A stretch of 39,723 nt of DNA from Emiliania huxleyi CCMP1516 (taxonomy: Eukaryota). The stretch lies in assembly GCF_000372725.1 (NCBI RefSeq), contig NW_005201298.1, positions 21,936-61,658 on the forward strand, read 5' to 3'. The notes beneath the pieces are model-generated. The model worked only from the letters and a program-made list of their open reading frames with translations. It did not search any database and was not told where the DNA came from. A program made the translations under genes and the position numbers. This document shows, one piece after another, positions 224 to 29,149 of this stretch; within the stretch, counting starts at the first letter, position 1; the number at the start of each line of letters is the position of its first letter.

Positions 224-2422
224 CTACTTCAGCAGCGACGCCCGCCCCCCCTCCGAGAGCGCCTCGCCGACGCCCTTGGCAGCAGGCGAAGCGCGCTCTC
301 CCGCCGCCACCTCGTCCGCCGCCGCCTCTCCCGCCCACGCCGCCGCCGCCGCCTCCGCCGCCGCCTCCGCCTCCGCCGCCTCCGCCGCCTCCGCCGCCAC
401 AGCCTCCGCCCCGGCCGGCCCCGCCGCCTCCGCCGCTCCGGCTTCCGGCACCAGAGGCGACGCCTCCACCGCCCCGCTGATTGAGACGCCGTCGGCTGCG
501 CCGCCCGCGATAGAGCAGGCCTGAGGGGGGGGAAGGTGAGGGTGAGGGTGAGGGTGGAGGGTTATGGGTAGGGGTAGAGGTTGGGGTTGGGGGAGGGGCA
601 GGGTGAGGGCTCTATGGCTGTGGGCAGGGTTGGGGTGATGGGGTGCGGCGAGGGGTGCGGAGAAGGGTCGTGGCTGCAAGCCTCGATGAGGGGAGACGCG
701 CGCTCGACCCGCACGCCATGTCCGCCGCTGGCGCTGACACTGTTCTTGCGCAGCAGCGGCGCTGCCCCTGCGTGAGGGATACGCCGACATGGGGGCGGGA
801 GGACGGTACACTGTGCAGCGTCTTCCGAGCGCCGCGTGAACAAGCGAGGGGCTGCGAGGACAGCGGAGTGCGGCGGAGTGAGTGATTTGTCCTCTCGAGC
901 GCTGGCTGGGAGACAAGAGTGCGTGGTGGTCGGCTTGCTAGCGCGCTGCGCCGTCAAAGATGAGGAAGCCCGCCCCTCCCGCGCCGCTCACCTAAGACTC
1001 GTTGGCAGCTCATTCACTCGCGCATCAGCGACGGCGCGTCGAGGAGGATGGCCCGCCCCTCCCCCCGTCACTCACCGTGCACCCCTCCACCGTCGGGCCG
1101 CCTCCTCCTCCTCCTCCTCCTCCTCCTCCTCCTCCTCCTCCTCCGCCACCGCCATCTCCGCCGCCATCTCCGCCGCCGTCTCCTCCACCACCGCCGCCTC
1201 CGGCGCCGGCGTCACCTCCCGCCGCCCGCCCCGAGATTTGAATGCCCGCCTTTGCGCACCCCGCGACGGAGCAAGCGCGGACGATCGCCCCGCTGCCACA
1301 GTCGACGAGCATCATCCCCGCCGCCCTGTGGTTGGGTGACTCTATGATTAGATGCTCTAGAGCTCTACAGGAGGAGGTGACTCCATGTGAAAGGTGGCTC
1401 TATGGTGAGAAGGCCTGCCGCCCTCCACCGCGCTCTCCTCCACCAACAGCGAGCTGGCGCCGCGGGCGGCGATGGCGGCGCGGCGCGCCCCCCTCACAAC
1501 CGTCTTGCGGACGGTCGCTGCGCCGCCTTCCCCAACCTGGACGCCACGCAGGAGTGATCTCGCGGACTCTCGAGTCCTCTCGGCTCCTCTCGCCTTCCCC
1601 AACCTGGACGCCGCTGCCGGCCGGGCTGTCGATGGTGCACTTCTCCAGAGTCGCGCGCGCCCCCGCGCGCACCGACACGGACGCGTGTCCCGCCCCGCCG
1701 CCGCCGCCGCCGCCCTCACCCCCGCCGCCGCCGCCGCCGCCCTCACCCCCGCCGCCGCCGGCTCTTTCTCCCGAGAGCTCGCACGCTCGCAGCGTGGCCG
1801 AGGCGGCCTTGCCGGAGAGGAGGAGGGCGCTCTCGCGGCAGCCGCGCACGGCCACGCCCTCGGCGGTCAGTGCGCAGCTCGAGAGCACGAGGAACCCGCA
1901 GCCGCCGCACCGGGCCAGCTCTCCGCCAGACACGCGCAGAGCGCCTCTCGCCGCGAGCACGGCGCCGTGCGAGGAGGGGGCCTCGAGGGTGCAGGCGGAG
2001 AGGGAGGCGGACGATCCGTGCACCAGCACCGCGGCGGAGAGCCGCGCCGCCGAGACTGCCACCAGCCGGCAGCCATCGATCGAGACGCCGTCTCCGGCGG
2101 CAGCGCCTCGGACCTCCAGTGCGTAGGCCGGAGCCTTGGGCGTGTCGATGGGCTGGCGAGCCTCGAGGTTTGCGACGCGCACGGCGCTTCCAGCGCAGAC
2201 AATTGCGCTCCCGTCCGAGCCCTCGACCACCGTCGACCCGGCACCCTCACCGAGGAGCGAGACGCCGGCCGGCACGTGCAACGTGCCCTCGCGGTATGTC
2301 CCAGCGCCGAGTAGGACGGTCCCGCCGCCCAAGGTGGCGGCGGCGGTCAGCGCGGCGGCAGCGCTGGGGTACTCGGTCGCGTCGGCGCCACCATCAGGGC
2401 GGAGGCGCGCGGTCGGAGGCAT
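224..2422 (-). CDS. Right-handed parallel beta-helix (pectin lyase-like fold) repeat protein. Six inferred exons: 2422-1604, 1536-1415, 1325-1076, 991-952, 767-682, 520-224
   Basis: N-terminal AALTAAATLGGGTVLLGAGTYRE cap and repeated xxIxGCxIxxxxxxGVxV-type turns (VSIDGCRL, LEKCTIDSPAGSGVQV, VRACSVAGCAKAGIQI, ACSIAGGAADGVSISG). The six exons join in phase through GT/GC-AG introns to the TAG at 224. Confidence 0.75.
533..620 (+). repeat. Degenerate telomere-like hexamer array (GGGTGA/GGGTTA/GGGTAG) inside an intron
   Basis: ggtgagggtgagggtgagggtggagggttatgggtaggggtagaggttggggttgg... lies within the inferred intron 521-681. Confidence 0.6.
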
Positions 2423-3489
2423 GTGTGTTTGTGGCTTGGTTTTGGTTCACGTAACCAGGTATCTCGAGGTTCTCGAGGTGGATATCCTTTGGCCGCGTTG
2501 CGTAGCGAGGATTGGTGTAACCCGAGCCACGGAGGCGTGTTTTCTGGCGGCCGACCGTCAGTGCACGGAGTTGCCACTTCTCCGACTGCCCCGGCTAGTT
2601 CCCGAGGTCGTCGGGTGTGACCCCTTCGTCCCCCGAGACCTAGCGCGGGTGGGTTGGAGGGGGCTCGCCCCGTTCCTCCCCATCGGGCCGCGTGAGCGGC
2701 CTCGCCTCGCAGATTCGTTTCTCGCGCCTGGGTCAGGCGCGCGGGGCATCCCCCGGGTCGCTCGACCAGCGATCCGAAGAGTGGCCGCTATGCGAGGGAA
2801 AGAGCGGGGCCCACGGGGTACGCCTCCGTCCGGCCCCCTCCGAGGGGGGAAGGGAATTGTGGGGTCCCCACGGGCGCCTCAGTTCGGCCCTCCCGAGGGG
2901 GGGGAGGGGAGCAAGGGGGTGGGGGGATCGGGGCGGGGGGGGAGGGGTCTCGGTTTCGTGTGGCTAATGCTTGCCTTTCGGGGAGGGGCCTCGGTGACAG
3001 GCGAGCGCAGTTGCGCGCGCCCAACGTCTTCCCCTCCTCCCCAGAGGCAGCAAGTAGGCAGCGAGTGGAGCACTCGAGCGCCTAGTAGGTTTGCGAGATG
3101 GCGATGGGAATGGGCGATCGGGTGGTGGGCGAATGGGCAGGTGGGCGGGGCGGGCGGTCGGGGCGGGCGCGCGGGCGGGATGGGGGAACCAGGTATGGTG
3201 CACTGAGCGAAACACAACAAATGAATTCAACAAGAGCCATGAAAAGAGCCACATACCCTGAAAAATTCTTTTAAGATGCCAAAGAAGAAAGAAAACCGAT
3301 CCGGTGGCCTGCTTCAGAGAGAGAGAGAGAGATTTTTAGCAATACCAAACAAATCTAACACTCACACGTCATTTGGGGCCTGGAGCCCTGTTCACGCGCG
3401 CGCGAGACGTGCAGACAGGGTTGCCAGGTGAGATCGAATGGCGCGGTTCACGCCTCGCACAACATTTGTTTTGTTGTGAAGAGTGGGCG

Positions 3490-4190
3490 CGCCACCCAAG
3501 AGCCTAGGTAGGTGCGGATCGGCAAGGCGCACGGGTCCAAGACTCGGGTCACATATTCGCTGCCCCCAGAGAGGGACGACGGATATCGGCGCGGCCCTAG
3601 CGTGGTGTGCGCCACGGTCCCCCAGGGCACCGTGGCGACGACCGTCGCCTCGGACTGGCTCGCGAACGAGCTGGCCGAGCACGGAGAGATTGATGCGGCA
3701 TGCCGCGACAAATATGTCATGCACCTGATGACGGCCGCCGGCGCCTCGGCGCCGGCCGACGCCGTGTTCAGGTTCACGGCTGGCGAGGCGATGCAGACCG
3801 AGGACGACGACGAGGACACCGGCTCCGAGGAGTATTCCGACGACAAGGCGTCCGACTAGCTGGCTTCACCCATATCTTACCCTCTGCCCCCCCCTCCTGC
3901 TACCCCCCAGGCTAGATGTAGTCACAGATAGCCCCACACAGCCCCTTACCCCTTCACCCTCGCCTCGCTGCTTGGTGTTTCTGAACACGTAGACGACCAC
4001 GCTGTGGGGGTTGTGTTATAGGAGTAGGAGTGGGGTGCAGGTTGTGCTCACCCACGGCACCGGGCCGGTGCTTGCACTTTGAATGCCGTGGGGCTCCTGC
4101 CCGTGTCCGGGCGTGGAGATGCGAGGGTCGCCCCCCCTTGCCCCACCACTTTGTGTGTGTGGAGCGACGTTTACCTTACCTTACCTTACC
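3490..4190 (+). mobile_element. 3' remnant of a non-LTR retroelement ending in (TTACC)4; 5' boundary uncertain
   Basis: An ORF end (stop at 3859) is followed by a UTR and (TTACC)4 at 4171-4190. The last ~140 bp are similar to 34983-35118, which has the same tail and a TSD. Confidence 0.6.
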
Positions 4191-4391
4191 TTCGTTCAAA
4201 AAACGCCCGCCCGCCCGCCAACCCGAGGCGGCTCGGCCCCCCACTCACCCAGAGATCAAAAACGCTCGGCCCCTCGCGAGCATCTGAAACGCTGCCGTTT
4301 CTTTTTCCTTGGGCGAGGGCCTCACGCCCATCAGTCATCCCAATGGAGGCGCTCCCCCCGAACCCGCACCCATACCGAGGACAAGCGACAA

Positions 4392-5372
4392 CTAGTACGC
4401 GGGCGCGAGCGTATAATTCGCAAATGGGACAAAGCCGGCAACGCTCGCGAGGCCTTGCAGCCGCGCGAGGTCGCACTTGCACGCGAGGCGGACCTCCTCA
4501 AGGCCGTTCTCGAGGGCGAGAGGGGCGGAGAGCAGTCGCCGGAGTGGGGTTGGGATTGCGCTTCCGTTGGGTAGGTACCACGCGTTCGGATCGGCTAGGT
4601 AGAGGGCCGCCTGCACCATCAAGCCGACGGCGGCAGTGGCACCGACGAGGACGCCTCGCCCCGCCGTGCCGCTCTCCACATGCGCGCGAAGGCTCGCGCT
4701 GAGAAGTGGCACGCTGTGCGCGACGAGCGACTGCGCCGCGAGCACGCATAGCGATGCGACTCGCACCGGGCGGACGTAGAGGAGCGCGAGGGCGAGAAAC
4801 GTCGACACAGAGACACCGAGAAGGAGCGCGGCTGCCCATCGCCGACGGTAGCCTCTCATGCACGCGGAAGGCGCAGAGGCCGCTCCGCCTCCGGTCGGCG
4901 AAGACAACATCTCCGACACCTCCGATCGGCCGTCTGCCATCGGCTCCAATTCCTCTTGATATGCACCGCCGTTCTCCGCTCGTGGCAACAGCCCCTCGAG
5001 AATGCCACCTACCCGCCTTCCCATGTCGACGCCAACGGCGACTGCGGCAGCCGCCTCATTCCGCAGCACCGTTACTGCTGCAAAGCCACCCGAGTACAAG
5101 CCCGACATCACGGGCTGGTACGAGGCTGGGTCGAAGAGCGCGCGTCGCTGCCGCAGCACAGAGAGTCCCCGCTTCACCTCTCCCAGACCGGCAGACGAAA
5201 AGGCCTGGAAGACCGTCAGCGTGAGCGTGAACGAGGCTCCATAGCAGAGAATGATTGCGTCGATAACAAGAGGGGCACAGGAGAAAAGCTGGACCCAGTC
5301 TCGAGCCGCTCTCTCTCCCTTCTTTTGCGCGCTCGGCGACGACGCGAATGCGGGCTCGCGTGATTTCAGCAT
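4392..5372 (-). CDS. Multi-pass membrane protein of unknown function, intronless 326 aa
   Basis: Several hydrophobic segments (APLVIDAIILCYGASFTLTLTVF; WAAALLLGVSVSTFLALALLY; VLVGATAAVGLMVQAALY). DPxxxxxxxxGLYxGxxAAVTVL resembles an uncharacterised algal/protist family (from memory). Confidence 0.7.
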   Translation of the reverse strand: MLKSREPAFASSPSAQKKGERAARDWVQLFSCAPLVIDAIILCYGASFTLTLTVFQAFSSAGLGEVKRGLSVLRQRRALFDPASYQPVMSGLYSGGFAAVTVLRNEAAAAVAVGVDMGRRVGGILEGLLPRAENGGAYQEELEPMADGRSEVSEMLSSPTGGGAASAPSACMRGYRRRWAAALLLGVSVSTFLALALLYVRPVRVASLCVLAAQSLVAHSVPLLSASLRAHVESGTAGRGVLVGATAAVGLMVQAALYLADPNAWYLPNGSAIPTPLRRLLSAPLALENGLEEVRLACKCDLARLQGLASVAGFVPFANYTLAPAY

Positions 5373-5602
5373 GTCGGAGCCGCGTCCTTTGGTCGATTTC
5401 GGCCTGTTTCGGCCGATATTTTGAAGAAAAAGGGGGATGTCTGTGAGCCCGAGAGCGATATGCCCTGTCCGCCTTGCGTTGTTTCATAACACGAAGGCTA
5501 AGCTCAGAAAAAAAGCAAACGTTTTCTCAGCACGATATCTCTTCCACGAGCCAATCCAAAGGACGCGGCGAGAAGCAGCGGAGGCGAGGGTTTTGGTGCG
5601 CC

Positions 5603-6892
5603 ATGTGGGATAGCGTGAAGGCGATCAGCAACACACTCGCTTCGAGCGTCGAGCAGGTGGGAGGTGCTGTGCTGGACGGTGGCGCAGCCGTTACCGAGAC
5701 AATGGCTGCTGTCGGCGAGCAGGTGGGCGGTGCTGTGCTCGATGTCGGCGAGCAAGTGGGCGGTGCTGTGCTCGATATCGGCGAGCAGGTGGGCGGTGCT
5801 GTGCTGGATGGCGGCGCGGCTATCGCGGGCACCTCATCATGGTTGGTCGATGAGGCAACGGATCACCTCGACAAAATGGCTCTCGGTCATCGCTGCGGCG
5901 GCACCTCCAATGTTCCGAGCGCGACTCTGTCGGCACAGCAAACCGGCTCCGCCGTCGCCACAGCCGCCGTCGCCACAGCCGCCGCCGCCACAGCCGCCGC
6001 CGCCGCTGCCACACCTTCCGACGGCGGTCGCAGTTTCGCCGCCTCGCGATACAAGACCCTGTACGAAGAGATGCCACGCGTGACCTATGCCTATGAGCTG
6101 CAGCGCGCGCTCCACAGCTTCGTGCGAGCCTGCGCCTCCCACCCGACGATGCGGGTTCCCGCGCCTGAGGGGGACGCGTTCTTCGGCCGGCTTCTAAACG
6201 AGGCTCTCGCCGCCGGTGGCGTGGCTGAGATACTCGACGAGGCAGCCCTGAGCAGGTTCGCAGTGCGCGTGTGGACCTCGCAGCAGCTCTGGGGCGGGCG
6301 CGAGTTCTGTTCTCTGCTAAACCAGGCCATTCGCGAGGACGGCACCCGCGCGCCCGCCACGCTGCGGCCTGCAGTGATACTCTGCCGCGCAATCAACGAC
6401 GTGCTGTGCTGCGGCAATCGCAAATCGGGCGCCAGCGAGTGGCCCAGTGGCCCAGGCGCGCTGCCGCCGCTGCTCGGCCAGTGGGTGAGCGCCAGCTGGA
6501 GTTCGGAGGCAGACGCCACATTTCGAGGGGGTGCGCTGCCGGCGGAGCACGAGCCCTTCTTCACCGTCGGCAGGCGCTTTCGCACCTGCATGTTTGTCGC
6601 AACCTCCTTCGATGAGGCGGTCGCGCGGCAGTTTATGGCGCGCGCGCCCGCCGACATGCAGCCGGTGCTGTGGCGGGTGCGCTTCGACCCGGTGCGTCGC
6701 TGCAAGCACGTCAACTATGTCGGCGCGCTCTCGACGGCGAGCTCGCGCGAGGCGGAGTTCCTCTTTCCTCCCTATTCGGTGTTCTCCGTGCTGCGGCTCG
6801 AGCGGTCGCAGCGCCACCTCATGGTGGAGTTGCAGGCGGCCGTGGATAATTTGCACGAACCGATCGAGCTGCCGCTCGCGCCGTGGTCGTGA
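5603..6892 (+). CDS. Mono-ADP-ribosyltransferase of the R-S-E (ARTC / cholera-toxin-like) clade with N-terminal 11-aa repeats
   Basis: ATG at 5603 (MWDSVK). C-terminal motifs in order: TFRGG (R), FVATSFD (xTS), REAEFLFPPYSVF (ExE). 33-bp repeats at 5711-5809 encode (V/I)GEQVGGAVLD. Confidence 0.85.
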   Translation: MWDSVKAISNTLASSVEQVGGAVLDGGAAVTETMAAVGEQVGGAVLDVGEQVGGAVLDIGEQVGGAVLDGGAAIAGTSSWLVDEATDHLDKMALGHRCGGTSNVPSATLSAQQTGSAVATAAVATAAAATAAAAAATPSDGGRSFAASRYKTLYEEMPRVTYAYELQRALHSFVRACASHPTMRVPAPEGDAFFGRLLNEALAAGGVAEILDEAALSRFAVRVWTSQQLWGGREFCSLLNQAIREDGTRAPATLRPAVILCRAINDVLCCGNRKSGASEWPSGPGALPPLLGQWVSASWSSEADATFRGGALPAEHEPFFTVGRRFRTCMFVATSFDEAVARQFMARAPADMQPVLWRVRFDPVRRCKHVNYVGALSTASSREAEFLFPPYSVFSVLRLERSQRHLMVELQAAVDNLHEPIELPLAPWS

Positions 6893-7149
6893 AGCTCGTT
6901 GCTCGTTGCACTAGTATGATTCGCTCTTTGACGATATTCGATATTACTACCAGCTACCTTTTGAACACACGGAGTCAGACCGATTCTCGCATCTCGGGAG
7001 TCGCGGGGGTGACGCCGAGCCGAGCGAGCGAGAGGCAGAGCGGGCGACCCTACTGACGAGCCGCGACACACACAGACAGACTCACAAACACGACAAAAAC
7101 CGGCGCAAAAAGAACGCATCAGATAACACCAATCTATATGAACGTAACT

Positions 7150-7901: not shown

Positions 7902-10900
7902 TGAGCTACCTTTGTGCCCCCTTAGGGGCACCCCTCCTGCGCTGCGCGTATGGTCACCCCTCCCTTCCGCCCTGTTGTTTTGGATGCCCCGCTCCGAGAA
8001 AGCATGTCTCGCAGCTGCGAGAAAAGACCTTCTCGGGTCCGAGGGCAGCCTCAACTGGAGTAGGGAAATTTGGATTTTGGTCAAACGCCTGCTGGGGGCA
8101 GCTTCGCGGAAGTATTCCGGAAGCCAGATGATCCCACTTGTCAACAGCAGGCGCCAGCGCCAATCAAATCTCCCTAGTGATGTTGACAACGGGCAGTCGA
8201 GATGGGCAATCTGACCATGAGTCGTTCATCAGGGGATGAACTCCACGTAGTAGTTAATGGATTCCGATCGGCCAACCGTCTCGCGACAGAGCCACCGAAG
8301 AACAGTGGGAGGGCTTTACCGACCCGACTCGGCTAAGCCGTCGGTGCCCGCCGCCCCCGCACGCCCATAGGACGACGATGACGACAGCAGGAGCTCGGCG
8401 CGAGCCGATTTAACTCCCGCCCCATTGTTGTAAGGTGCGTATGGCTCGAACGTGAAGCGATGTAGTAGCTCGAATTGGCGTGAACACCGGCTTGCTGCGC
8501 GGCGGGTCAACCCCATTATGCGCAGTCATCCGGAATTCACCCAATCGTTGAGCTGAGTTGCCCCGACGGTAGGATGCCGTGTCAAGGCCCAGCTGGGCGC
8601 TAGGCGCCCTGCCGCACTGGCGCAGGGCGCGACGGCAGTGGCGGCGGTTTGTGCTGACGGCGGCAGCGCTTCGAAGCGGGAGCGACGGGCCACTGTCAGG
8701 ACAAATCGTCGGGCGCCAGGCAAAATGCGGGCGCGCTGCCGCCGCGGCGCGAACGAGCCCGAGCGAGGCGCGCGCCAGCGCCGCTCGCCGAGCCGCCGTC
8801 GGCGGTAGCGGACCGCGCCAGAGACTGGCCGGCGAGCGAGCGCGGTCGACGAAGAGGTGAAGCGCTTGCGACAGCAGGATGAACTGGCGGGCCAGATCGT
8901 CGGGCGCCAGCTCGAGCGCCCCCAGCGTGTTAGCGAAGCGAAGCCAGCGTGCCATGGTTGCCGACGGCTCACCTATAGGTGTATATTACAGAGCCATCAC
9001 CGAGGCTGGCTGGAATTTTAGAGCCATCACCTTGGGCTGGTCCGGTATTTGGGGGCCGGAGTCGTCACCCAGGTAGGAGCTCCGATGGAAGGTATTTTAA
9101 GGACAGTCACCCAGTCCGATGGAAGGTAGTTTATCGCCGTCACCCAGGCGCAGGATGCTTTACGCCGCATTCCCGGCGACCTTCCATGTGGGCCAGCTCC
9201 GTGGGCCAGCTCCGTGGGCCAGCCTCCGTGGGCCAGCTCCGTGGGCCAGCTCCGTGGGCCAGCTCCGGAAGGTAATCGTCTGCCCAAGGCGGTGCCTCTC
9301 TGCGTCCGTCGCGTTCGGCGCCGGTGCCAGTGAGCGTCCGCAGGTTCCTCGCGCGTCCGGCTGGCCGGTGCCGCGAGCGTCCCAAAGTGGTACCTTGCAG
9401 GCCCGGCTTCTAGGCGCCACAGCATTGGGCTTTAGGCGCCACAGCCTGACTGTGCAAGCTTCCGAGCAGACGGGTTTGGATGCTTTGCGCCGCATTCCTG
9501 GCGACCCGCCAAGAGCCTCCAGGGAGACGGCGGGTGGGTGGCTGAGCCGGCTCGGCTTCTAGGCGCCACAGCATTAGGCTTTAGGCGCCACAGCCTGAGC
9601 CCCGCCGGCGGTGAGGGTCCACCAGACGGGTACCAGCTGCCGGGGTGGCGACGGGGGGCACCGCCGCCAGGGCGGCGGGGCGCAGCGCAAAACCGCCACG
9701 CCGCCGCCGAGCATGCCGCAGCAGCGGACCGCGCCCAGCCTCTGGGCGCCACAGCATTGGGCTTTAGGCGCCCAGTCTGGGCCCCGCCGACGGTGAGGGG
9801 TCCGCCAGACGGGTGCCAGTTGCCGGGGCGGCGACGGGGTGCACTGCCGCCACGACCCGCCGAGATGCCTTGTCGCTATCAGGCGCAAAATCGCCACGCC
9901 GCCGCCGAGCATGCCGCAGCAGCGGACCGCGCCCAGCCTCTGGGCGCCACAGCATTAGGCTTTAGGCGCCACAGTCTGAGCCCCGCCGACGGTGAGAAGT
10001 CCACCAGGCGGGTGCCAGTCGCCGGGGCGGCGACGGGGTGCACTGCCGCCACGGCGGAGGGGCGCAACGCAAACCGCCACGCCGCTGCCGAGCGCGTCGT
10101 GACGGCCGACACGGCTCGGCTGGCAGCGCGCGTCGCAGAGGGCAAGAGGCGAGCGCGCCCCACCGCAGCGAGAGGCGCTGTCGGGCCCACCAGGACAGGC
10201 GCCGGGACAGCGACAGGGCGCACCGCCGCACGGCGGCGGAGCGCAACGCGAGCCGTCCTCGCTAAAGACCGCCGCCTCCGCGGAGTCAGGCAGCACCGAC
10301 CCAAGCCCCGCGATGAAGGCGATCATCAGCAGCGTGCGGAGGAAGTCCTCGCTAAAGACCGCCGCCTCCGCGGAGTCAGGCAGCACCGACCCAAGCCCCG
10401 CGATGAAGGCGATCATCAGCAGCGTGCGGAGGAAGTCCTCGCTAAAGACCGCCGCCTCCGCGGAGTCAGGCAGCACCGACCCAAGCCCCGCGATGAAGGC
10501 GATCATCAGCAGCGTGCGGAGGAAGTCCTCGCTAAAGACCGCCGCCTCCGCGGAGTCAGGCAGCACCGACCCAAGCCCCGCGATGAAGGCGATCATCAGC
10601 AGCGTGCGACCACACCGCCGCTGAGCGCGTCGTGGCAGCCGAAGGCGCCGCGGCTCGGCTGGCGACGCAAAGGAAGAGGCGAGCGCGCTTCACCGGCGGC
10701 GAGAGGCGCTGCCGGGCCCAGCAAATATGTGCGCCAGGACAGCGACGGGGCGCACCGCCGCCACGGCGGCAGGGCGCAACACGGAGCTGCCACGCCGCCG
10801 CCGAGCACGTCGCGGCGGCGAGCCGCGCCGCGGCTCGGCCGGCAGCGCGCGCCGCCGAGGGGTGGAGGCGGGCGCGCCCCACCGGCTGCGGGAGGGAGGA

Positions 10901-12701
10901 CTGTCAGGCCCAACAGGTGGGCGCCAAGACAGCAACGGGGCGTACCGCCGCCACGGCGGCGGAGCGCAACGCAAGCCGCCACGCCGCCGCCGTCGAACGC
11001 GCACTGGCACAAGATCGCGCCGCGGCCCAGCCGGCAGCGCGCGTCGCCGAAGGGGAGAGGCGAGCGCGCCCCACCGACGGTGAGTGGCGCTGTCGGGCCC
11101 ACCAAAACAGGCGCTGGGACAGCGACAGGGCGCACCGCCGCAACGGCGGCGGAGCACAACGCGAGCCGCCACGCCGCTGCTGATCGCGTCGTGGCAGCCA
11201 CAGGCGCCGCGGCTCGGCCGGCGCGCGTGTCGCCAAAGGAAGAGGCGAGCGCGCTTCACCGGCGGCGAGAGGCGCTGCCGGGCCCAGCAGATATGTGCGC
11301 CAGGACAGCGACGGGGCGCACCGCCGCCACGGTGGCAGGGCGCAACGCAGAGCTGCCACGCCGCCGCTGAGCACGCCGCGGCGGCGAGCCGCGCCGCGGC
11401 TCGGCCGGCAGCGCGCGTCGCCGAGGGGAGAAGGCGAGTGCGCCCCACCGACGGCGGGAGGAACTATCAGGCCTTAGGACAGTAACGGGGCGTACCGCCG
11501 CCACGGCGGCGGAGCGCAACGAGAGCCGCCACGCCGCCGCCGAGCACGCCGCGGGAAGCTCGAACGGCGTGTCGTGCATGGCGCGGCGGGACGGATGATT
11601 TAACGCCTCACCCAGGCGGGGACTGAGAGCAGTAGCGGGGCGCCGGGGGCGAGCAGGTAGAGGCGCTTATCCTCGACGCTGCGGCGGCCAGCGTCGCCGC
11701 GCAAGTAGGTCGCCGCATCGCGCGCCTCCTCCAGCCACTGCGGCCCCGCAACGTTGGGGGCGCAGAGCGAAGGGGGCAGCGCGCCCTCCAGCGCGAGCAC
11801 GTAGTCCTTAAAATAGCTCGCCAGTAGTTGCGGGTTAGCACTCGGGGGGAGGCCGTACGCGGAGACAGCCGCTGGCGAGAAGGTAGGGCCGCGCGCGCAG
11901 CCGCCGCCGGCCTCGCCGCAGACGCCGCGGCGCTGGCTCGGCGAGGCGCCCCGCGCTGCGCATGAGCAGCATCCCCCGCCAGCGCGGCCGCGGCGGCGAG
12001 GCCCCCCACCGGGAGGAGATCGGGCTCTTTCACCTCCAGCGCCGCTGGCGACACATCGAGGCGGTCGATCGCCAGCTGTAGTGCAGCCGAAGAGGAGAAG
12101 GGGGCCGCGTCGAGGAGCCCGCACGTGAGCAGCTCGTTCAGGAAGCGAGCCCACGCGGTTCCGGTGAGAGCGAGGTCCAGCGGGCAGACCATCGGGGCGG
12201 GAGTACCGGCGGGGGGCGCCGCGTCCGAGGCGCAGCCGCCGGCCAAAGACGCGCAGCATCGCGTGGTGCGCAAGCTGCACGCGCGCTGCTCCGCTCGGCG
12301 CAGCCGCAACCGGCCCCTAGCGGAGGACGGCAGTAGCCACCACCAGCGGGTGGGCAGCGGGGCCCTGGACGGGGGCGTCGGGCCCCGCGTGGACGCAGTG
12401 CAGATCAATCGGCGGTACTGCCGCGGCCATCGCGCCCGACAGGGGCCGAGCGCGGCTCGCAGAAGCTCTCTTTATTCCCTAGTTCAAGCAAAGAAGGGGA
12501 GGGAGAGAGCGACGCGGCGAGCGCAGGCGGCGAGCGTGCACGTCGCCTGTGCGGCGTCTTGTTCACTCCCCTTTGAGCTACCTTTGTGCCCCCTTAGGGG
12601 CACCCCTCCTGCGCTGCGCGTATGGTCACCCCTCCCTTCCGCCCTGTTGTTTTGGATGCCCCGCTCCGAGAAAGCATGTCTCGCAGCTGCGAGAAAAGAC
12701 C
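7902..12701 (-). mobile_element. 4.8-kb element bounded by identical 128-bp direct repeats, with decayed gag-like ORFs; class unresolved (LTR-like or YR/DIRS-Ngaro-like)
   Basis: 7902-8029 is identical to 12574-12701. Frameshifted minus-strand coding lies at 11600-12430 and 8410-8975. No TSD seen. Confidence 0.55.
8974..11606. repeat. Complex repeat block: 13-mer GTGGGCCAGCTCC array (9188-9266), four 90-bp tandem units (10255-10608), many diverged longer modules
   Basis: Tandem units directly visible. Recurring motifs include ggcgccacagcattrggctttaggcgcc and gcgcaccgccgccacggcgg. Flanked by CTCACC direct repeats. Confidence 0.85.
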
Positions 12702-12780
12702 ATTCTGTACATGTCTGGACGCTCCACAAACCCTATTGGGGACTCGGACGCGATGGATTACACGCTGCCAATACGGTATT

Positions 12781-14785
12781 CTACGGCTGCACTATTTGCT
12801 GCGGCTCGGCGGGGCGCCGCCGCACGAGGCGCGCCACCGCGATGCGGCGGCGGAGGAGCTGCCACCGCCGCTGGAGCGGTCCCGCATCGCAAGGCACGGC
12901 TCCCATGCTTGTTAGTATGAGGCGCAAGCTCACCGTGCGGTGCGCCGGAGCCGGGTAGAGCGGCACCGCCACCGTGTCGAAGAGCTTGTACGGCGGCTGC
13001 TGCAGCACCTGCGGCGTCTGCTGGAAAAAGTTGCGGAAAGGAACGCCGCCGCAGCTTGGCTCCTGTTCGTGGACCGGGGCGATGACGATGCCCCGGTCCA
13101 TCGCCGCCTGCACGAGGCGCGCGACGGCGCCGCCGGCGTCCAGGAAGGTCTTATCGTTCAGGTAGAGCAGGAACACTACGTGCCCGGAGAGCGGGGCCGC
13201 GTTGACTCCCTCGAGCGCCTCCTCCGCATCGCGGATCGCGACCGCCTCGGCGCTGGCGGTAGAGCCGCGTCCCTCCCCCGCCGCCGTCTCGACCAGCTCC
13301 GCTACATTGGCGGCGCCCTCGTTGCCGCTGCACACGAGGATGGTGACGGGGCCGCTGAAGGCAACGGGGCCCGCCTGGCCGGGCACCATCACTCCGTCGG
13401 CGAGCTCGGCCGGGCGGCTCGCGTAGTAGGGAGAGTGGCGCAGCATGCGCAGCACGACAGCCTTGAGCGACACGAGCTGAAAGGCGTTCACCCGCACCCA
13501 CACGATAGGCATCGCCTCCTCAAACACGCGCGCGAGCATCTCGTCTGGCCCGCGGTAGGAAGGGTAGCCAGGCGGAGCGACCTCGACGCAGTGCTCGCGG
13601 CACTCTGCCTTCAGCGCCTCGATCGAGGCGCCGCCCTTTCCTGTGTCTGCCTCAAAGATGGGGATGAAGGGCCGGTTCGAGCCGAGCGCCGCGTACAGCT
13701 CGCGGCGACAGTTGAAGCTCTTGAAGTATCCCGCGCTGAGGAAGACGAGAAAGGTCATCGCGTCCCTCACCGACTCCTCGAGCCTGCCCACGTCCTCGAG
13801 GTTGTCGACGTCGAGCCAGATCCGGACGCCGGGCAGTAGCAGCTGGAGTCGCCGCACGACGGTGTGGGTCTGGTCCTGGCCGGTTCCCCAGGCGTGCGAG
13901 ATGAAGCCGTGAAAGTGGCACTCGGGGGACAACTCTAGGACTGGGGGGCGGCCGGAGCAGACGAGGCGGACGGTGGGCATGCGGACGGCGCTGATTGTCT
14001 TGAAGAGGACGACGAGCAGCGACGCGATGAGCATTGCGGCGGCGAGCACGATGACAAACTCGCTCGCGCCGCGCGCGCTGTCGAGGCCCACGAGGGTCTT
14101 GCACATGTCCTCGTAAGCGGCGCTCTCGCACAGCTGAATCACCGTGCCGGAGGTGAAGCAACAGGCGAGCAACATATTGGCGGTGCACGCGAGGTAAAGG
14201 TCGTCGTCGCGCTTGAAGGGACGGGTGAGGGCGAGGACGGCGAGGTAGAGGGCCGAGACGACAGACGCGATGAAGAGGCGGAGGATCTTGCTCGAGCCGT
14301 CGTCTGTCTGGATGAAGAGCACCAGCGAAGCGAGGAAGAGCTTGCGGCCCAGATCGACGACCTCCCAGAAGAGGAAACGCGGGTCGTAGTCGCGCCAGAG
14401 GAAGCGGCAAGCTCGTGCCGTGGCCATGACTCGCTGCGCCCGCACCTCGGAGCGGATCGAGAGCAGGAGCGCCAGGAAGGCTAGCGGCACGAGCACCGGC
14501 CAGAGCACGAAGAACGCCCAGAAGTAGGCGTCGAGGCCGCTGTACTCGTCGTCGTCGGCGCTGCAGAGCACGTCGAGGTCGGCCACGAGGTAGCTGCGCC
14601 TCTCCCCGGTAAAGAGGTTGATGTCAAACGACTCGCACTGCTTCGCCTTGAAGATGGAGCGAGAGACGGAGGGCAGCACGAGGTAGGCAACGAGGATGGC
14701 CCAGTAGATCAGGCGGCGCAGCGTAGCGCGGACGACGTCGCGACGGAGGCTGTCGGCGCAACCAGACAGAGTCGGCGTCGCCCTA
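12781..14785 (-). CDS. Multi-pass membrane receptor-like protein with a cytoplasmic TIR domain and a second degenerate TIR-like domain (long terminal exon)
   Basis: TM segments (LIYWAILVAYLVLPSV, YFWAFFVLWPVLVPLAFLALLL, FWEVVDLGRKLFLASLVLF), then FHGFISHAWGTGQD...IWLDVDNL...FLVFLSAGYFKSFNCRRELYAA (TIR with Glu). A second unit reads VFLLYLNDKTF...IAPVHEQ. Confidence 0.85.
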
Positions 14786-14845
14786 CGCGTCGAACGCGGG
14801 ATGGGGTCACAGAGTGGGTCGGCAGACGCCGGCGCGCACAATGCC

Positions 14846-15890
14846 AGGCGCTCGCCGCCGGGGCGGGCTCCTCCTTCGGAAACTCCTTGATCGACGGCAG
14901 CGGCGCGCCGCCGGCCTCCGCCGGCTTGAGGGCCGTGGCGACCTTGGTGGCCGGCTTGAGCGACGGGTCGTTCTTGATGGCGCCGGTCTCGTCAACGGAG
15001 GCCTCCGCGCCAGACTCTGCCGCAGGGATGTCCTTCTTGAGGGCGCCCTTGACGGCGCCGGTGGGGGCCGTCGGTGGGCCGGTCGGGGGCGTAAACTTGG
15101 ACCAGAAAACGGCGGGCGGGCACGGAGCGTGGGTGGCGAACATGGCCTTGGCCTTGTCCGAGTTGACCGCGCCCGCGGCCTTTTCCGCGGCCGGGTCCTT
15201 CTTGAGGACGCCCTCCGGGCCAGACTTTGCCACGGAGATGTTGACGTTCTTGACGCCGCACGCCTGTGGGCGAGGGAGAGTACAGTACGCGCAGGCTTTC
15301 GGAGACGGGAGAGGATCATAATCCTGGTGTGCGCACGCGCACCTTGGCTCCGGGGAGCGAAGGCGACACCGACGCGGAGATGACGAGCGTGACGCGGCCG
15401 TCGTCAGCCGGCACGATTCCGACCTTCGCGGAGGACGTCATCGGCGAAAACTCGCCCTTGACGTTGCCGCCGCCCGCGTCAACGCCGTCCTTGAGCGGGA
15501 CAGGCTCGCCCTCGGACGGGACGTTGCCGGTGCCGGTGCTGGCGGTGCCGGTGCCGCCGGTGCCGGTGTCGATGCCATCCTTGAGCGAGACGGGCTCGGA
15601 GGGGATGCCGACGGCGTTGCCTCCGCCGGAGTCGATGGCGGTCGTGTTGTCTGCCAGAGACGCCTGTCAGCCACAGAACGCGAGAGGCTAGTCTTGCGTG
15701 CATACCCCCTCCCTGAGCCAGTGCAAATTAACGCACACCTGCTTGTCAGCAAGCGGCGGCGGAGGAGAGAGCTTGAGCACAAGCTTGTCACCGGCGGCCG
15801 GCACGAGCTCGAGTTTGAGCATGTTGATCGAATTCCTGCAGAGAGTCAAGAAGCGGTTGAAGGTGGTGCTCGAGTGGCCCTAGCGGCTGC
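14846..15890 (-). CDS. Three inferred low-complexity exons (~15890-15739, 15664-15344, 15263-14846), possibly the 5' part of, or fused to, the TIR gene
   Basis: Coding-like codon usage and AG|GT donor / CAG| acceptor sites at ~15738, 15665, 15343 and 15264. Pro/Ala/Lys/Gly-rich; no domain recognised. Confidence 0.4.
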
Positions 15891-18760: not shown

Positions 18761-19244
18761 TGGAGGGGCCAGGAAAAGACCGATCTCGTGAACGCGAGAT
18801 GTCGCAAAGAGAAAAATGAAAAAGACGGGCGCCCCCCGCCCCTGCCACCCTCGGCGTGTGCCCCTATCAGTGTGCCTGTGGTAGACAGGACCAAGCAAGT
18901 GGGTGGCGAAGGCGCGCGTCGCTGGGAGCTCAGAGCCGCGTCCCCTGCTCGCCACCCCGACGCTCAAGGCGCCCGAGTCGAACGACAGGCGGCACGCGAA
19001 GACTGTTGCAATCCCGCCGATCCTGGAGAGATGACCGGTTGTTTTTTTCTTCTTTTTTCTAGTCCCGTGCCCAGTGATGCGCAGACAGTACTTCTCTTCA
19101 CAACAAAAACAAACTTTGGCGAGCCAACGCAGCTTACACACGTCGCGGCAGTCGAGGTGTCCACCGCCTCTTACCCCAGTTGCACCGCGCGCGCAGCGCG
19201 GCGCCCGCGAGTCGCGCGACGTCCGACGACAACAGAGTCTTCCG

Positions 19245-19345
19245 TAGCCCGCAGCGCGAACTCGGAGCCTAGCGCAGCGCGAACTCGCCGTCTGAGCCTA
19301 GCGCAGCGCGAACTCGCTGTCTGAGCCTAGCGCAGCGCGGACTCG
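19245..19345. repeat. ~29-bp tandem repeat (gagcctagcgcagcgcgaactcgccgtct), about 3.5 copies
   Basis: Directly visible. Confidence 0.85.
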
Positions 19346-19768
19346 CTCCTGTTCATAGCTGCGCAACCCTAGCCCGGCTCCATGTTTTCTTTTTGCGCAG
19401 CGGCGCCGCCAGACGCCCGCCCCGGCGGTGAACGAGCGGAGCGAAGTGAACCGCCGGGGCGGGCGCCTGGCGGCTCCGCGGAGCGCCTTTGGCTCGGCGC
19501 GGGCGGGGGGGCGAGTATAAAAAGAAATCGAAGAGGCGCTCTCAAAGAAATTTAGTGCGGCCCGACTAACACAACCTTTAGGAACACCATTTTGCGGTCC
19601 TGAGCGGCCGTCTCGGAACGGTACAAGCAACGGTACGGGAGTTGCCCGGGCGGCAATGCTGCTCGCAACCCTAGACGTAGCCGACTAAACAACAATCCGA
19701 GCCTACGGCACCCCGGGCTCGTGATACCGCACCGCCCACGGGACCGACCCACACTGGGTTGCTTCCGA

Positions 19769-22700
19769 TCAAATGAACTGGCGGCTGTCGGGGGAAAGAG
19801 CGGCCTCCATCTCGGCGGCTTGGCGCATGAGCTGCCGCTGCTCGAGGGCGCTGATCCCCTCCTCATACGGCCCGTCGTAAGAGCCGCTGCTCTTCCTGCT
19901 CCCCCACACCGGCGGTGTGGTCATGTCGCCGGCCGCAGCCGCAAGCGGCGTCTCTGGCGCGGGAGGCTCTCCCCTCCCCAGCCGGCGCGGTGTCGGGTCG
20001 GGCGCCTGCCGGCGCTGCTCGACAAGCTCGACACCGCGCGGGAGCTCGGGCGTGCAGTCGGCCTCGGCGAGCCGCGCGTTGACGGCCGCCTCGATGTCGC
20101 CGAGCTTGCCCTTTGCTGCGCGGATGGCCGCGTCGTGCCGCTCCTCAGCGGCGGCCGCGCGCCGCAGCGGCGCCTGCTCCTCCCCAGGCATGTCCCCAGG
20201 CTCCTCCGGCAGCTGCACCGCCGACTGCCGCGCGTCGCGAGCCTTGTCGCGAGCGCGCTGCGCGAGGAAGGCGGCGCGCGCCTCCGCGTGCGCCACCCAC
20301 TGCGGCCTGCGCGGGACGAGCCACTTGAAGAGGACCTTGGCGAGGAGGACTGCGTGCTCGAGCGCCACGAGGAGCACGATGGTCGTGTACCAGACGGTGT
20401 ACCTGCCCACACGACCTCACGCGTGAAGAGTCTCCACTCACAGCGCGACCGCCGTGTGCACGGGACGGCGTGTGCCGCCGCTCGCCGCAGAGCGAGCAGA
20501 GCCGCGCGTCGTAATGCGGGTCGGCCGGGTCGCAGAGCAGGTCCGCGAAGGGCTGCGAGCGGTAGGCGAGTGCGTCGAGGTACTCCGAGGCGGGCAGCCA
20601 CGGCACCGACCCAACCTCCGCGAAGCAGAGCCTGTAGTTACTGCGGCACCGGTCGTCGTGCCAGGAGATGTTGAAACCGGACCAGACGCCAAAGGGAGTC
20701 ATCGCCTCCGGCTCGTTGGGCGGCGCAACCTCGCACGCGGCGTCGTCGCGGTCGGCGACGATCGGCGTCACGATGTAGTCGCGGAACGTCCACGACGTCG
20801 CGAGCAGCAGCACGTTGACCACGATGGCGAGCCACGAGAGGAGCTCCATCATCTGCTGCCACGAGCCCGCGTCCTTGGCGCCGAGGTAGCGCGGCCGCCG
20901 CACCTCGAAGCCGAGCTTGTGCGCGTCGACGCGCAGCTCCACGAAGTTGGCCAGCATCGCGCAGAAGGAGGCGAGCGGGAAGCAGGCCGAGAAGAGGGCG
21001 ATGTACCCGAACTGGACCACTACTCGGAGAAGGTGCCGTCGAAAGGGCGCATCGAGACCTGCGCCAGCGCGGGAGGGGGGGGGGGGGGGGTGCAGGCTTC
21101 GGTGGGCAGAGGGCTGGGGCGGCGGGCCGACGGCGGGGGAGAGGAGACTTGCCTGCCGCTCGATCGCGTAGCGGAACTCCATTTCCTGCGACGCGTGCCG
21201 GACGGCACTCGCGATGCGGTTGACACTCGGCTCCTCGGCTTGCCCGCCCGCCAACACCGCCCGAGGTGTGCCCTCGTTGCTCGTGGCGAGGGACGGCGGC
21301 GGCGGCGGGCGGGCCCCCCTTTGGACCTTTGCCGGCGCCGATTCCGCCAGCTTCGTCCACTGCCTCTCGAGAGCTCGAGCGCGCCGCCAGAGGTTGAGCC
21401 AGCGGACGAGCCTGCAGACAGCGCGTGTGGCGGGTCGGAGGGCCGTGGTGGGTGGACACACCCCCGCGGAAGGCGGGGCGGAGGGGAGCCGTGGCAGGAA
21501 GACTTGCAGCGGCAGCTCGTACAGCGGCTTCAAGATCATGAAGCATAGCATTGTCACGCGGAGCTCGGACCAGCAGTCGTCGCGCACAAAGATGAAGTCC
21601 TCGCCCCCGCCGTCCCCGCCGGCGCTGCAGCGCGATCCGGCGCTCATCGAGGCCCACCAGTCCCTGCCTCGGGCGCCACAGGTGTCCGCATACGGTTCGC
21701 CGTACGGGTCGGTGTACCCCCACCCGCCAAAGAGCGTCAGCGAGTTCGGCTTCGCGAACGCGACGTAGACGAGCGGGCCTGCTAGTCACAGGAACCTTCT
21801 AGGAACCTTCTAGGAACCTTCTCTAGCAGACGAGCGGGCCTGCTAGTCACAATGCTTTGGAGTCTGTGGACACGGCCTCGGGTGGAGCCCCCGTCCTCGA
21901 CAGGCGGGCCGTAAGAGTTGATGCACTCGAAGAGGAGGTTCTAGGAAGTGTCTAGGAAGTGTCGAGGAAGTGTCCAGGAAGTGTCCAGGAAGTGTCTAGG
22001 AAGTCGCGGGCCGTAAGAGTTGATGCACTGGAAGAGGAAGGACTTTCGGATGAGCGCGTCCTCGTACTCTGAGGCCGGGCGAGGGGGTGTGGCGCTCTGA
22101 GGGCGGGGGTGTGGAGCGCCGGCTGAGGCCGCCGGGGGACGGCGGGGGCGGGGGGGGGGGGGGGGGGCCAAACGGGAGGTTCTCCCCCTTTGAGGGCCCC
22201 TAGGGGCGGGGAGGGGCACCGGTGTCTGTCCTGTGGTACTCGAGGCCGTTCAGACAGGCTGCGAGCCGCTTGTACAGCGCGTTCATCACCGAGATCCAGA
22301 CGGTGTTGAGCGCCGCGCCGATGAAGGGACCCCATTGCGAGTTGAGGTAGGTGTTGCCTTCGAACTGTTTCCCCAGCCGGAGCAGCGCGCGGAACGAGAA
22401 AATGGAGAGCATCACCGCGACGGTGGTGGCGGCGACGAGCAGCAGCACCGGCGCGCCGACGCAGAAGAAGACGCAGAGCCGCCGCCACGGCGAGAGGACG
22501 AGCATCTCCTCGCCGGCGGGGTGCGGCACGAAGCGGCGGACGCGCGACGTGCCGCCCCCGGCCATGTAGAAGCCCCGCTGCTTGGTGATGGACTTCATGC
22601 GGTGGAAGGCCTGCAGGCGCTCGCGGGCCATGAGTGTGAGTGAGGGCTCCCACTGCTGCCCCCCTGACTATTGCACTTTTGTCTGTGTGGCGATGCCTTT

Positions 22701-24133
22701 CCCTGAGAACGCACACTCCGCCTCGTGTGCAATACCCCCTGTGTTCCGCGAGTGCGTGTGCCCCGTCTTCCGTGCTAGGACATGTGTAACACTGACTGAC
22801 TGGCTGGAAGGCCTGGACGAAGCGCGGCCGCGGCGCCTCGTCGCGCTCAAAGTTGAGCACGTCCCACTGGAAGGCGAGCGTGTGCTGCCTAGAAGGTTCC
22901 TAGAAGGTTCCTAGAAGGTTCCTATAGAAGGTTCCTAGAAGGCACAGCACTGGAAGGCGAGCGTGTGCTGCCTGCGAGCCCACAGCGTGCCTGCGGGGGG
23001 GGCATCTCCCTCGAGAGTCAGCTCTCTCGGGAGACAGAGGAGCATCGGCTCGCTCGCCTGCCCCCCACGTCAATGTGCAAGGGAGGGAGAGCGCCGGCCG
23101 CGGGAGACTGCGCGCGCGCCTCGGAGGGTCGCCCACAGCGCGATGACGACGGAGGAGAGGGGGAGAGTGAAGGCGGATTTGGTCGTGCACGTCTCCGCGA
23201 GGAAAGAGGTGCGGTCCTATACGTAGCACAGGCAGCCGTCACTCCAAGGTCTGGCCTGCTCCACCTCTGCACACGTCTCCACACAGAGGAAGGAGGTGCT
23301 GCGCTGGAATCAAGGGGGCGCCTACTACTACTCTTGTGTGTCTCGCGCCTTGCGTGTGTGTGTGGGGGGAGCGGGAAGGAGGAACCGCTTTCCAAGAGCG
23401 CCACTCTTGGAGCGCCGCCAAAACCACCCAGAGCGCTGCAAGCAGCGCCGGGGGCAATGACGGCTTACCGCCCAGCCAGCCCCCCCTCGGCACACCCCCG
23501 GCAGCCACAATGTGTGACGGTGCTACTACTAGGGGTGCGCTCCTCGTCGCCCGGGCAGAGGGCGGGCTCGGGCGGCGAGAGCGCCGCCGAGCCGAGGAAG
23601 TCGCACCCGTCGAAGAGGTAGATGCCCTCGAGCGCGAGGGACCCCCACATCAGCAGCCACAGCCAGCCGGTGTAGTGGTCGAGCCTGAGGGGGACACACG
23701 GCGCCATGATGCACCTCAGAAGATACACCCCCCATCTCTCCACACACACAATCTGAGCGGGCGCCGCTCTCTCACCAGCCGAAGTAGAAGGCGATCTTCT
23801 CGCCGTAGTGTCTAGGAAGTGTCAAGGAAGTGTCTAGGAAGTGTCTACTCACCAGCCGAAGTAGAAGGCGATCTTCTCGCCGTAGTAGTCGCGCACGCGG
23901 TGCAGCGGCATCTGGCAGAGGCCGAGGTCCGGAAACAGGCGGCGGCGGGTGCGCAGGACGCCGCCGCGCCAGGGCCAGATGCGGATGCTCTGCAGGGCGA
24001 AGCCGCGGTGGAGGCTGCGGCGCTCCTTGGCGTCGTGGAGAGGGAGGTAGGCGGTGAGGACGCCTGGCGGAGAGGGAGGGGGTGGGTGGGTGGAGGGGTG
24101 CGCGCGCGCCGCGAGCGCGCGAGCGAGCGCCGC

Positions 24134-24172
<39 letters not shown>

Positions 24173-24194
24173 TGTGCGCGCGCGTGCGTGTTTA

Positions 24195-24225
<31 letters not shown>

Positions 24226-24226
24226 A

Positions 24227-24291
<65 letters not shown>

Positions 24292-27933: not shown

Positions 27934-29149
<1,216 letters not shown>

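What the first reader, a model, noticed from the sequence alone, without database searches (positions are those of the whole stretch)
952..23886. Candidate intron-generating system: 11-39-bp exon/splice-site duplications flanking a 10-11-bp repeat filler
SEEN: seven sites in two genes have the form [copy]-filler-[copy]. Copies are 22 bp (1524/1591), ~31 bp diverged (962/1044), 24 bp (21767/21828), 33 bp (21904/22006), 11 bp (22603/22805), 26 bp (22865/22948) and 39 bp (23771/23848). Five of the fillers are 37-69-bp arrays of 10-11-mers (GGAACCTTCTA, GACACTTCCTA, nnnnCTCTCG). Every duplication spans an inferred splice junction. Other inferred introns also begin like the next exon: G|GCGCAGCGC vs G|GGGCAGCGC at 951/767, AG|GCTTGC vs AG|GCCTGC at 681/520, G|GCCCGC on both sides of the INSYG intron. 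KNOWN: duplication of an AGGY proto-splice site and double-strand-break repair are proposed intron-gain routes; introners are transposons with short TSDs. INFERENCE: a staggered break or target-primed synthesis inserts a short-period repeat with a long TSD, and events survive when the duplicate supplies splice sites. This would jointly explain GC donors and intronic 10-11-mers. I do not recall this combination being described, but could not search.
Basis: partly seen in the sequence, partly recalled or inferred. Interest (0 to 1): 0.92.

Follow-up and report, generated by a model that had tools for sequence, protein, structure and literature searches.

The report
Introns born from duplication plus filler
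In this marine alga (likely Emiliania/Gephyrocapsa huxleyi), short filler DNA, often 10-11-base repeats, sits between two copies of about 25 bases of gene sequence at many sites; RNA shows such an insert spliced out as an intron, so this is likely an ongoing, large-scale source of new introns whose enzyme is still unknown.

Summary
All five long copy-filler-copy sites are exact or nearly so, and three are seen in independent DNA runs. RNA removes 1537-1603 (67 nt, exactly one copy plus filler) in two studies; 22889-22971 (83 nt) fits relatives' proteins and contig arithmetic. The other three only lengthen older introns at their ends.

In marine-metagenome contigs, 98 of 120 filler arrays have flanking duplications (0 of 300 controls; median 25 bp). 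All 20 inferred exon-internal sites are splice-precise on the coding strand (null 4.7). Another 56 events use other fillers, many unique; 15 of 17 exon-internal ones are precise. One empty/filled allele pair was found.

The enzyme is unidentified: retrotransposon target-priming (about 45%) or host end-joining (about 35%). It is closest to Daphnia staggered-break intron gain (4-12-bp repeats). The scan noted single similar introns in other genomes. Verdict: new variant of a known kind.

The parts
1537..1603 (-). 67-nt GT-AG intron = one 22-bp copy (1524-1545 / 1591-1612) plus 45-nt degenerate 10-mer filler (1546-1590), inside a beta-helix gene exon; likely new
   Evidence: RNA X11 and X15 join 1523->1591, skip 67; DNA X1 and X4 carry both copies and filler; copies
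992..1075 (-). 84-nt GT-AG intron whose 5' end (1044-1075) is a diverged copy of the next exon start (962-991); likely an older event
   Evidence: X15 loose end joins 992 to 1077; alignment score 19, 0 of 1000 shuffles
768..951 (-). 184-nt GC-AG intron, start resembles next exon; holds a high-copy repeat
   Evidence: RNA joint 758->943 in X11 and X15; 7 of 10 matches
21767..21851 (-). 24-bp duplication across the acceptor (21767-21790 / 21828-21851) with 37-nt 11-mer filler (21791-21827, antisense to the gene); lengthens an older intron
   Evidence: bare core intron retained in P0005 and P0016
21904..22038 (-). 33-bp duplication across the donor (21904-21936 / 22006-22038) with 69-nt 11-mer filler (21937-22005); lengthens the same intron
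21779..22011 (-). 233-nt GC-AG intron of the anoctamin gene, spliced as one unit with the outer sites; contains the ancestral core of about 72 nt plus the two inserts above
   Evidence: RNA joint 21772->22006 in X11 and X15; boundaries
22611..22812 (-). 202-nt GC-AG intron = 11-bp duplication plus a 191-nt high-copy element that starts with a (CAGT)n tail next to the first copy; the same element sits in L058 between 24-bp duplications
   Evidence: X11 piece ends at 22602; proteins; L058 match 82%
22889..22971 (-). 83-nt GC-AG intron = one 26-bp copy (22865-22890 / 22948-22973) plus 57-nt 11-mer filler, mid-exon; likely new
   Evidence: single-copy peptide in P0014 and P0018 of the window's lineage; RNA contig length and depth fit the spliced model (start 23612) and not the retained one (23203); the joint itself was not listed
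23217..23542 (-). 326-nt GA-AG intron; start matches next exon at 8 of 10 positions, followed by a (TAG)n tail and a high-copy element
   Evidence: boundaries inferred from X15 piece end, depth and proteins
23771..23886 (-). 39-bp duplication across the donor (23771-23809 / 23848-23886) with 38-nt 11-mer filler; lengthens the 168-nt intron 23685-23852
   Evidence: RNA X11 piece starts at 23852; X2 and X3 contigs show the single-copy form (may be assembler collapse)
19772..25010 (-). host gene: anoctamin/TMEM16 family (approximate span)
   Evidence: Pfam PF04547, PF20877; P0004 and P0005 at 99% and 97%
445..2422 (-). host gene: right-handed beta-helix protein (approximate span)
   Evidence: Pfam PF13229, E 3e-6; RNA pieces

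Best explanation
Inserts of about 35-55 nt lie between 12-45-bp direct duplications at many gene sites; they likely arise when two nicks about 25 nt apart are made on opposite strands and a polymerase, most likely a non-LTR retrotransposon reverse transcriptase acting in trans on short repeat RNAs, extends the freed 3' end before gap filling duplicates the target. Shown: the anatomy, its generality, the splicing of one such insert, an empty/filled allele pair and the splice-precision bias. Inferred: purifying selection keeps exon-internal inserts only when a GC/GT in the first copy and an AG at the filler end or in the second copy remove exactly one copy plus filler, which gives a new 60-80-nt intron. 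Inserts across existing splice junctions survive by lengthening the old intron. Speculative: the enzyme and the RNA templates (retroposon tails, satellite read-through from a tRNA gene).
For: Duplications flank 98 of 120 arrays versus 0 of 300 mismatched pairs; 102 of 120 with a wider fit, median 25 bp, 3% divergence, length mod 3 uniform. Splice precision on the coding strand: 20 of 20 versus null 4.7+-1.9, maximum 12 in 2000 runs (18 of 20 before the copy was extended backwards). For other fillers 15 of 17 versus 4.1+-1.7. Four sites split a Pfam domain with consecutive profile positions. RNA joint 1523->1591. L001 is empty and L045 filled, with a 29-bp duplication and (TAT)n filler. For a retro-machinery: a tail-plus-body element carries duplications of 11 and 24 bp; filler families are shared between unrelated loci (19 of 56 other fillers); a 1.7-kb array of the main unit lies about 60 nt downstream of a tRNA-Arg gene on the same strand (L017). 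RTE elements have short-repeat 3' tails and 10-20-bp duplications (PMC2887409 passages), whereas break-repair telomere insertions carried a plain duplication in 3 of 66 loci (PMC7215372 passages).
Against: No reverse transcriptase or endonuclease was found (47 window ORFs scanned), and no shared element body lies next to the 11-mer arrays. The two junctions are alike (microhomology of 2 nt or more at 37 versus 38 of 95; 3 or more extra nt at 21 versus 26 of 95) and there is no target-site motif, so the polarity expected of target-primed reverse transcription is not seen. 37 of 56 other fillers are unique in the 190 kb held and many are AT-rich mosaics; 13 of 56 share 11 nt or more with their own flanks versus 5% for other flanks, which fits repair synthesis. 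Metagenome sites have no RNA support, come from few samples, and are not proven to be the window's species. The tRNA-array link is one locus.
Confidence: 0.45

Rival explanations
1. The anatomy and the selective filter are the same, but the filler is made by host repair: paired nicks or a staggered break are mended by an end-joining polymerase (Pol theta-like) that slips and switches templates on abundant genomic repeats or nearby DNA.
For: Symmetric junctions with microhomology and extra nucleotides, no target motif; many unique or locally templated fillers; Daphnia introns are gained and then lengthened by repeated staggered breaks (PMC4202315 passages).
Against: A duplication at 82-85% of arrays with a narrow length mode is unlike published break-repair inserts (4.5%; 4-12 bp in 33 of 90 introns). 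The same few 10-11-mer families recur across unrelated loci.
Confidence: 0.35
2. A telomerase-like enzyme with short internal RNA templates adds the 10-11-mers at staggered breaks, as with interstitial telomeric sequences.
For: Integral repeats of one unit with in-register microhomology at the junction (mean 1.4 versus 0.35 nt), as reported for telomeric inserts.
Against: At least five repeat families plus unique fillers use the same anatomy; duplications are rare at telomeric inserts; haptophyte telomeres are a 6-mer (recalled, not checked).
Confidence: 0.08
3. Plain tandem duplication of an exon segment (Rogers model), followed by minisatellite growth between the copies.
For: The splice geometry is the same when AG|GY lies inside the copy (10 of 30 cases).
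Against: The copy is only about a third of the insert, the filler does not resemble the exon, identical units occur at unrelated loci, copies are about 97% identical, and the one allele pair differs by copy and filler together.
Confidence: 0.07
4. Assembly artefact or chance resemblance to the splice consensus.
For: Short-read contigs of repeats can mis-assemble; at the 39-bp site two runs show only the single-copy form.
Against: Independent DNA runs carry filled forms while RNA runs skip them exactly; controls give 0 of 300 and 0-1 events.
Confidence: 0.02

Closest known systems
Intron gain at staggered double-strand breaks in Daphnia pulex (PMC4202315, passages read; review PMC3443670, passages)
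   Same: New intron = inserted DNA flanked by a direct repeat of the adjacent exon; later staggered events lengthen the intron; presence/absence alleles.
   Different: Repeats are 4-12 bp in 33 of 90 introns there, versus 12-45 bp (median 25) at 82-85% of arrays here. Fillers here include recurring 10-11-mer families whose CTAG supplies acceptors on either strand, most donors are GC, and events are dense (56 unselected events in 174 kb of gene-rich contigs).
Tandem genomic duplication of an AGGY proto-splice site (Rogers model; PMC3443670 passages)
   Same: Donor, and sometimes acceptor, come from the duplicated exon segment; removal is precise.
   Different: Most of the intron here is foreign filler, and in 20 of 30 cases the acceptor is at the filler end.
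Introners (Micromonas, Aureococcus, Symbiodinium, Chrysochromulina; passages of 10.1101/2022.06.06.494994, PMC12130899, PMC11282704)
   Same: Many introns made by insertions that carry one splice site and take the other from the target duplication.
   Different: Those have 3-4-bp duplications, often inverted repeats, and fixed sequence families. Here there are no fixed ends or length. Both screens removed low-complexity candidates, so these would have been filtered out.
5'-truncated RTE-type non-LTR retrotransposons with simple-repeat tails (PMC2887409 passages)
   Same: Short-repeat tail next to a 10-20-bp duplication; variable truncation. The (CAGT)n-tailed element at 22614-22804 and in L058 looks like this.
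   Different: No coding body was found for the 11-mer fillers, no junction polarity was seen, and the passages read do not report intron creation.
Interstitial telomeric sequence insertion at breaks (PMC7215372 passages)
   Same: Short tandem array inserted in one step with in-register microhomology.
   Different: Plain duplication in only 3 of 66 horse loci, one repeat unit, none of the human inserts in exons.

Membership tests
Staggered-break intron gain (Daphnia type) | Direct repeat of exon sequence flanking inserted DNA, above background | tested here: met
   98 of 120 versus 0 of 300; 56 versus 0-1 in shuffles
Staggered-break intron gain (Daphnia type) | Insert is spliced precisely | tested here: met
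   RNA joint 1523->1591 in two studies; 83-nt site indirect; metagenome sites predicted only
Staggered-break intron gain (Daphnia type) | Empty allele or outgroup lacking the intron | tested here: met
   L001 empty versus L045 filled; for the two window de novo sites no empty allele in the 2 DNA-type runs laid on each
Staggered-break intron gain (Daphnia type) | Made by end-joining repair | not testable with these tools
   junction statistics fit but do not discriminate
Introners (DNA-transposon type) | Sequence family with fixed length and ends | tested here: not met
   variable unit number and phase, many unique fillers
Introners (DNA-transposon type) | Short fixed duplication (3-4 bp) | tested here: not met
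   12-45 bp, median 25
Introners (DNA-transposon type) | Terminal inverted repeats | not tested
   none evident by eye; no dedicated scan was run
Introners (DNA-transposon type) | One splice site carried, the other taken from the duplication | tested here: met
   20 of 30
Non-LTR retrotransposon / SINE insertions | Variable-length target duplication | tested here: met
Non-LTR retrotransposon / SINE insertions | 3' repeat tail joined to a shared, 5'-truncated body | tested here: inconclusive
   met for the (CAGT)n element (2 copies); not found for 11-mer arrays
Non-LTR retrotransposon / SINE insertions | Polar junctions and an endonuclease target motif | tested here: not met
   Fisher p 0.27 and 0.50; no motif
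Non-LTR retrotransposon / SINE insertions | Autonomous RT/EN partner in the genome | not testable with these tools
   no genome held; none in 47 window ORFs
Rogers tandem duplication | Intron consists wholly of duplicated exon sequence | tested here: not met
   filler is about two thirds of the insert

The most novel reading that the evidence does not exclude
A dedicated target-primed synthesis system, a retroelement enzyme copying satellite RNAs such as a tRNA-Arg read-through of the 11-mer array, is creating thousands of introns in the most abundant coccolithophore lineage. Its self-complementary CTAG unit supplies acceptors in either orientation, and it accounts for most of this genome's introns, their 10-11-bp repeats and their GC donors.
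Probability: 0.2. Interest if true: 0.95.

Novelty: new variant of a known kind. Interest (0 to 1): 0.84.

Why it matters
The source of most new spliceosomal introns is still open, and mass gains have so far been traced mainly to transposon introners. Here the birth scars are long, young and dense, so intron birth, survival and ageing can be counted directly. New, polymorphic, end-lengthened and decayed stages all occur, several in one gene. The process would be invisible to introner screens, which discard low-complexity introns. It may link two odd traits of E. huxleyi: majority GC donors and 10-11-bp intron repeats (recalled from Read et al. 2013, which is not held). If one event per 3 kb of gene-rich DNA held genome-wide (an extrapolation from biased loci), thousands of introns would have this origin. 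It also matters for annotation: these inserts look like frameshifts in housekeeping genes.

Tried and rejected
No whole genome is held, so the genome-wide test used metagenome contigs picked by the filler pattern: 122 loci from 22 of 64 parts scanned, about 350 stretches estimated. The pattern gave 0 hits in viral contigs and 1 in prokaryote genomes (L123; not examined, left out).

The first protein search was in the wrong frame, though its two hits still showed spliced junctions. My early idea that the junctions are polar, with a primer end and a finishing end, failed when both sides were measured alike. A search for a shared element body behind the 11-mer arrays found none. The excess of G at donor -1 (27 of 30) is largely forced by the geometry and is not used as evidence.

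The single-copy form at 23771/23848 in X2 and X3 is not counted as a firm empty allele, because a 39-bp repeat can collapse in short-word assemblies. Summed contig depths over the fillers are not used as copy numbers. The first permutation test had two wrong intron boundaries and was redone.

Rows dropped: 5 nested sites, 6; L017, L123 and 8 redundant loci; 5 sites with two possible junctions. Paper searches returned no description of this anatomy in haptophytes. Read et al. 2013 is not held, and the supplements of the two introner screens were not read, so whether this species was in their sets is unknown.
Full report
Setting. The window is eukaryotic, about 65% GC, and is held by marine metagenomes, metatranscriptomes and cultures. 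Its introns use GC and GA donors. I infer Emiliania/Gephyrocapsa huxleyi or a close relative; no tool named the species. The seven sites lie in two minus-strand genes, a beta-helix protein and an anoctamin.

Observation. Five sites are exact or near-exact duplications of 22, 24, 33, 26 and 39 bp around 37-69-nt arrays. One is an 11-bp duplication around a 191-nt insert, and one is diverged. Independent DNA contigs carry both copies and filler at 1524/1591 (X1, X4) and at 21767/21828, and filler next to a copy at 21904 (X2) and 22948 (X2, X3). At 23771/23848, X2 and X3 show the single-copy form, which may be a true empty allele or assembler collapse.

Splicing. RNA contigs from two studies skip exactly 67 nt at 1523->1591, GT-AG on the gene strand, which is one copy plus filler. 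The 83-nt case (22889-22971, GC-AG) was not among the joints listed. The length and depth of the X11 contig fit the spliced model, and full-length proteins of the window's lineage have the peptide once (P0014, P0018). These two are the likely new introns. The 24-bp and 33-bp events lie at the two ends of one 233-nt intron spliced with the outer sites. A related lineage keeps a bare 72-nt version of that intron with neither insert (retained in P0005 and P0016, spliced in P0019). So these two events, and the 39-bp one, lengthened older introns. Ten other introns start more like their next exon than permuted pairs do (49 versus 32.2 matches, p=0.0002), which suggests older rounds.

Generality, main filler family. 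A pattern covering both 11-mer units found 122 metagenome loci, from a scan that stopped at 22 of 64 parts. Of 120 non-redundant arrays with enough flank, 98 have a flanking direct repeat scoring 12 or more, versus 0 of 300 mismatched pairs. A wider fit gave 102 of 120, median 25 bp, 3% divergence, copy-plus-filler median 72 nt, with no bias for multiples of three. A codon model trained on window exons (97 of 105 in-sample frames right) classed 20 of 96 sites as exon-internal. All 20 have a GC/GT..AG pair on the coding strand that removes exactly the insert, versus 5 of 20 on the other strand and 4.7+-1.9 (maximum 12 in 2000 runs) when the same fillers are dropped at random into exons (18 of 20 before backward extension of the copy). 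In 4 of the 20, the same Pfam domain continues across the site: histone deacetylase, AAA_12, aconitase family (positions 415|417) and SNF2.

Generality, other fillers. The flanks, not selected for these events, hold 71 further events in 174 kb. Of these, 47 are 60-79 nt long and 56 are 50-110 nt, against 0-1 in five shuffles. 15 of 17 exon-internal ones are GC/GT..AG precise and one more has a GA donor (null 4.1+-1.7). Their fillers include other 10-11-mer families, short repeats and unique AT-rich sequence; 19 of 56 match another locus. L001 and L045 are the same locus without and with a 29-bp duplication plus 40-nt (TAT)n filler, precise at AAG|GT. Limits: these contigs come from few samples, share repeats with the window at 82-98% but are not proven conspecific, and have no RNA.

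Splice sites. Of 30 unambiguous predicted new introns, 19 have GC and 11 GT donors. Exonic GY dinucleotides are 75% GC, and 20 of 30 acceptors form at the filler end, mostly TAG. The main units contain CTAG, so they offer an acceptor in both orientations (15 sense, 5 antisense). The GC share matches the published 56-65% for E. huxleyi (PMC4028052 passages), but cause and effect are not separated.

Mechanism. A near-universal duplication implies nicks about 25 nt apart on opposite strands, synthesis of filler and gap filling (inference). Retro-machinery is favoured slightly for four reasons. A (CAGT)n-tailed element with a body has duplications of 11 and 24 bp. Filler families recur in trans. 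One 1.7-kb array lies just downstream of a tRNA-Arg gene. RTE elements have such tails and duplications. Against it: no enzyme or body was found, the junctions are symmetric, there is no target motif, and many fillers are unique or partly local. I put retro target-priming at 0.45 and host end-joining at 0.35. That the inserts are real and make and lengthen introns I put near 0.9.

Known kinds. The nearest is Daphnia staggered-break intron gain with 4-12-bp repeats; then the Rogers duplication model, introners with 3-4-bp duplications, and telomeric inserts. For all papers I read passages returned by term search, not whole texts. Both introner screens removed low-complexity candidates and their main texts do not mention huxleyi; their supplements were not read. 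Ten library searches found no account of this anatomy in haptophytes. The 2013 genome paper, which I recall noting 10-11-bp intron repeats, is not held. Earlier notes of this scan describe single comparable introns in other genomes.

Verdict. Observation confirmed, interpretation partly supported and broadened, new variant of a known kind, interest 0.84.

Noticed in passing
window about 21020-21030: The window's anoctamin allele lacks 10 nt present in RNA X11 and run X3 (X2 shows 21 gap letters over its longer piece) and in relatives' proteins, which shifts the frame; a strain-specific lesion or an assembly error.
   Followed up: partly
window 21408-22219, run X3: X3 (kind not on record) has contigs joined across two adjacent introns (21779-22011, 22069-22219), with a break at the next one (21412-21489), yet retains neighbouring introns; either RNA in the library or an allele with adjacent introns lost.
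   Followed up: no
L017 1-3369: tRNA spacer: tRNA-Arg(TCG), then 1.7 kb of the 11-mer, then tandem units of about 120 bp, another 11-mer array and a second tRNA, all tRNAs on one strand; a possible source locus of the filler.
   Followed up: partly
window 4060-4195, 35000-35120, 28290-28430: Three copies of a short element with a (TTACC)n tail and variable 5' extent; the copy in an intron of the gene at 28060-29150 appears to supply the acceptor; also in L059.
   Followed up: partly
window 32912-33281 and 33391-33608: Introns of a Guanylate_cyc_2/peptidase C39-like gene hold the same 11-mer and a 10-mer array without a clear long duplication; the first intron's start resembles the next exon.
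   Followed up: no
window 25760-27430: Intergenic arrays of other 11-mers (GTCCTGACAGA type) and 10-12-mers.
   Followed up: no
window 9400-11560: Nested tandem repeats of about 190 and 374 bp interrupted by a near-perfect 90-bp repeat in 3.9 copies.
   Followed up: no
window 12784-14991 and 5447-6889: A long single-exon membrane protein with a TIR_2 domain, and an ORF with a weak, sub-threshold ADP-ribosyltransferase match.
   Followed up: no
L030, L071, L098, L099: Nested copy-filler-copy-filler-copy structures, suggesting repeated hits or re-duplication at the same site.
   Followed up: no
L123: One match of the filler pattern in an archaeal MAG contig; not examined.
   Followed up: no
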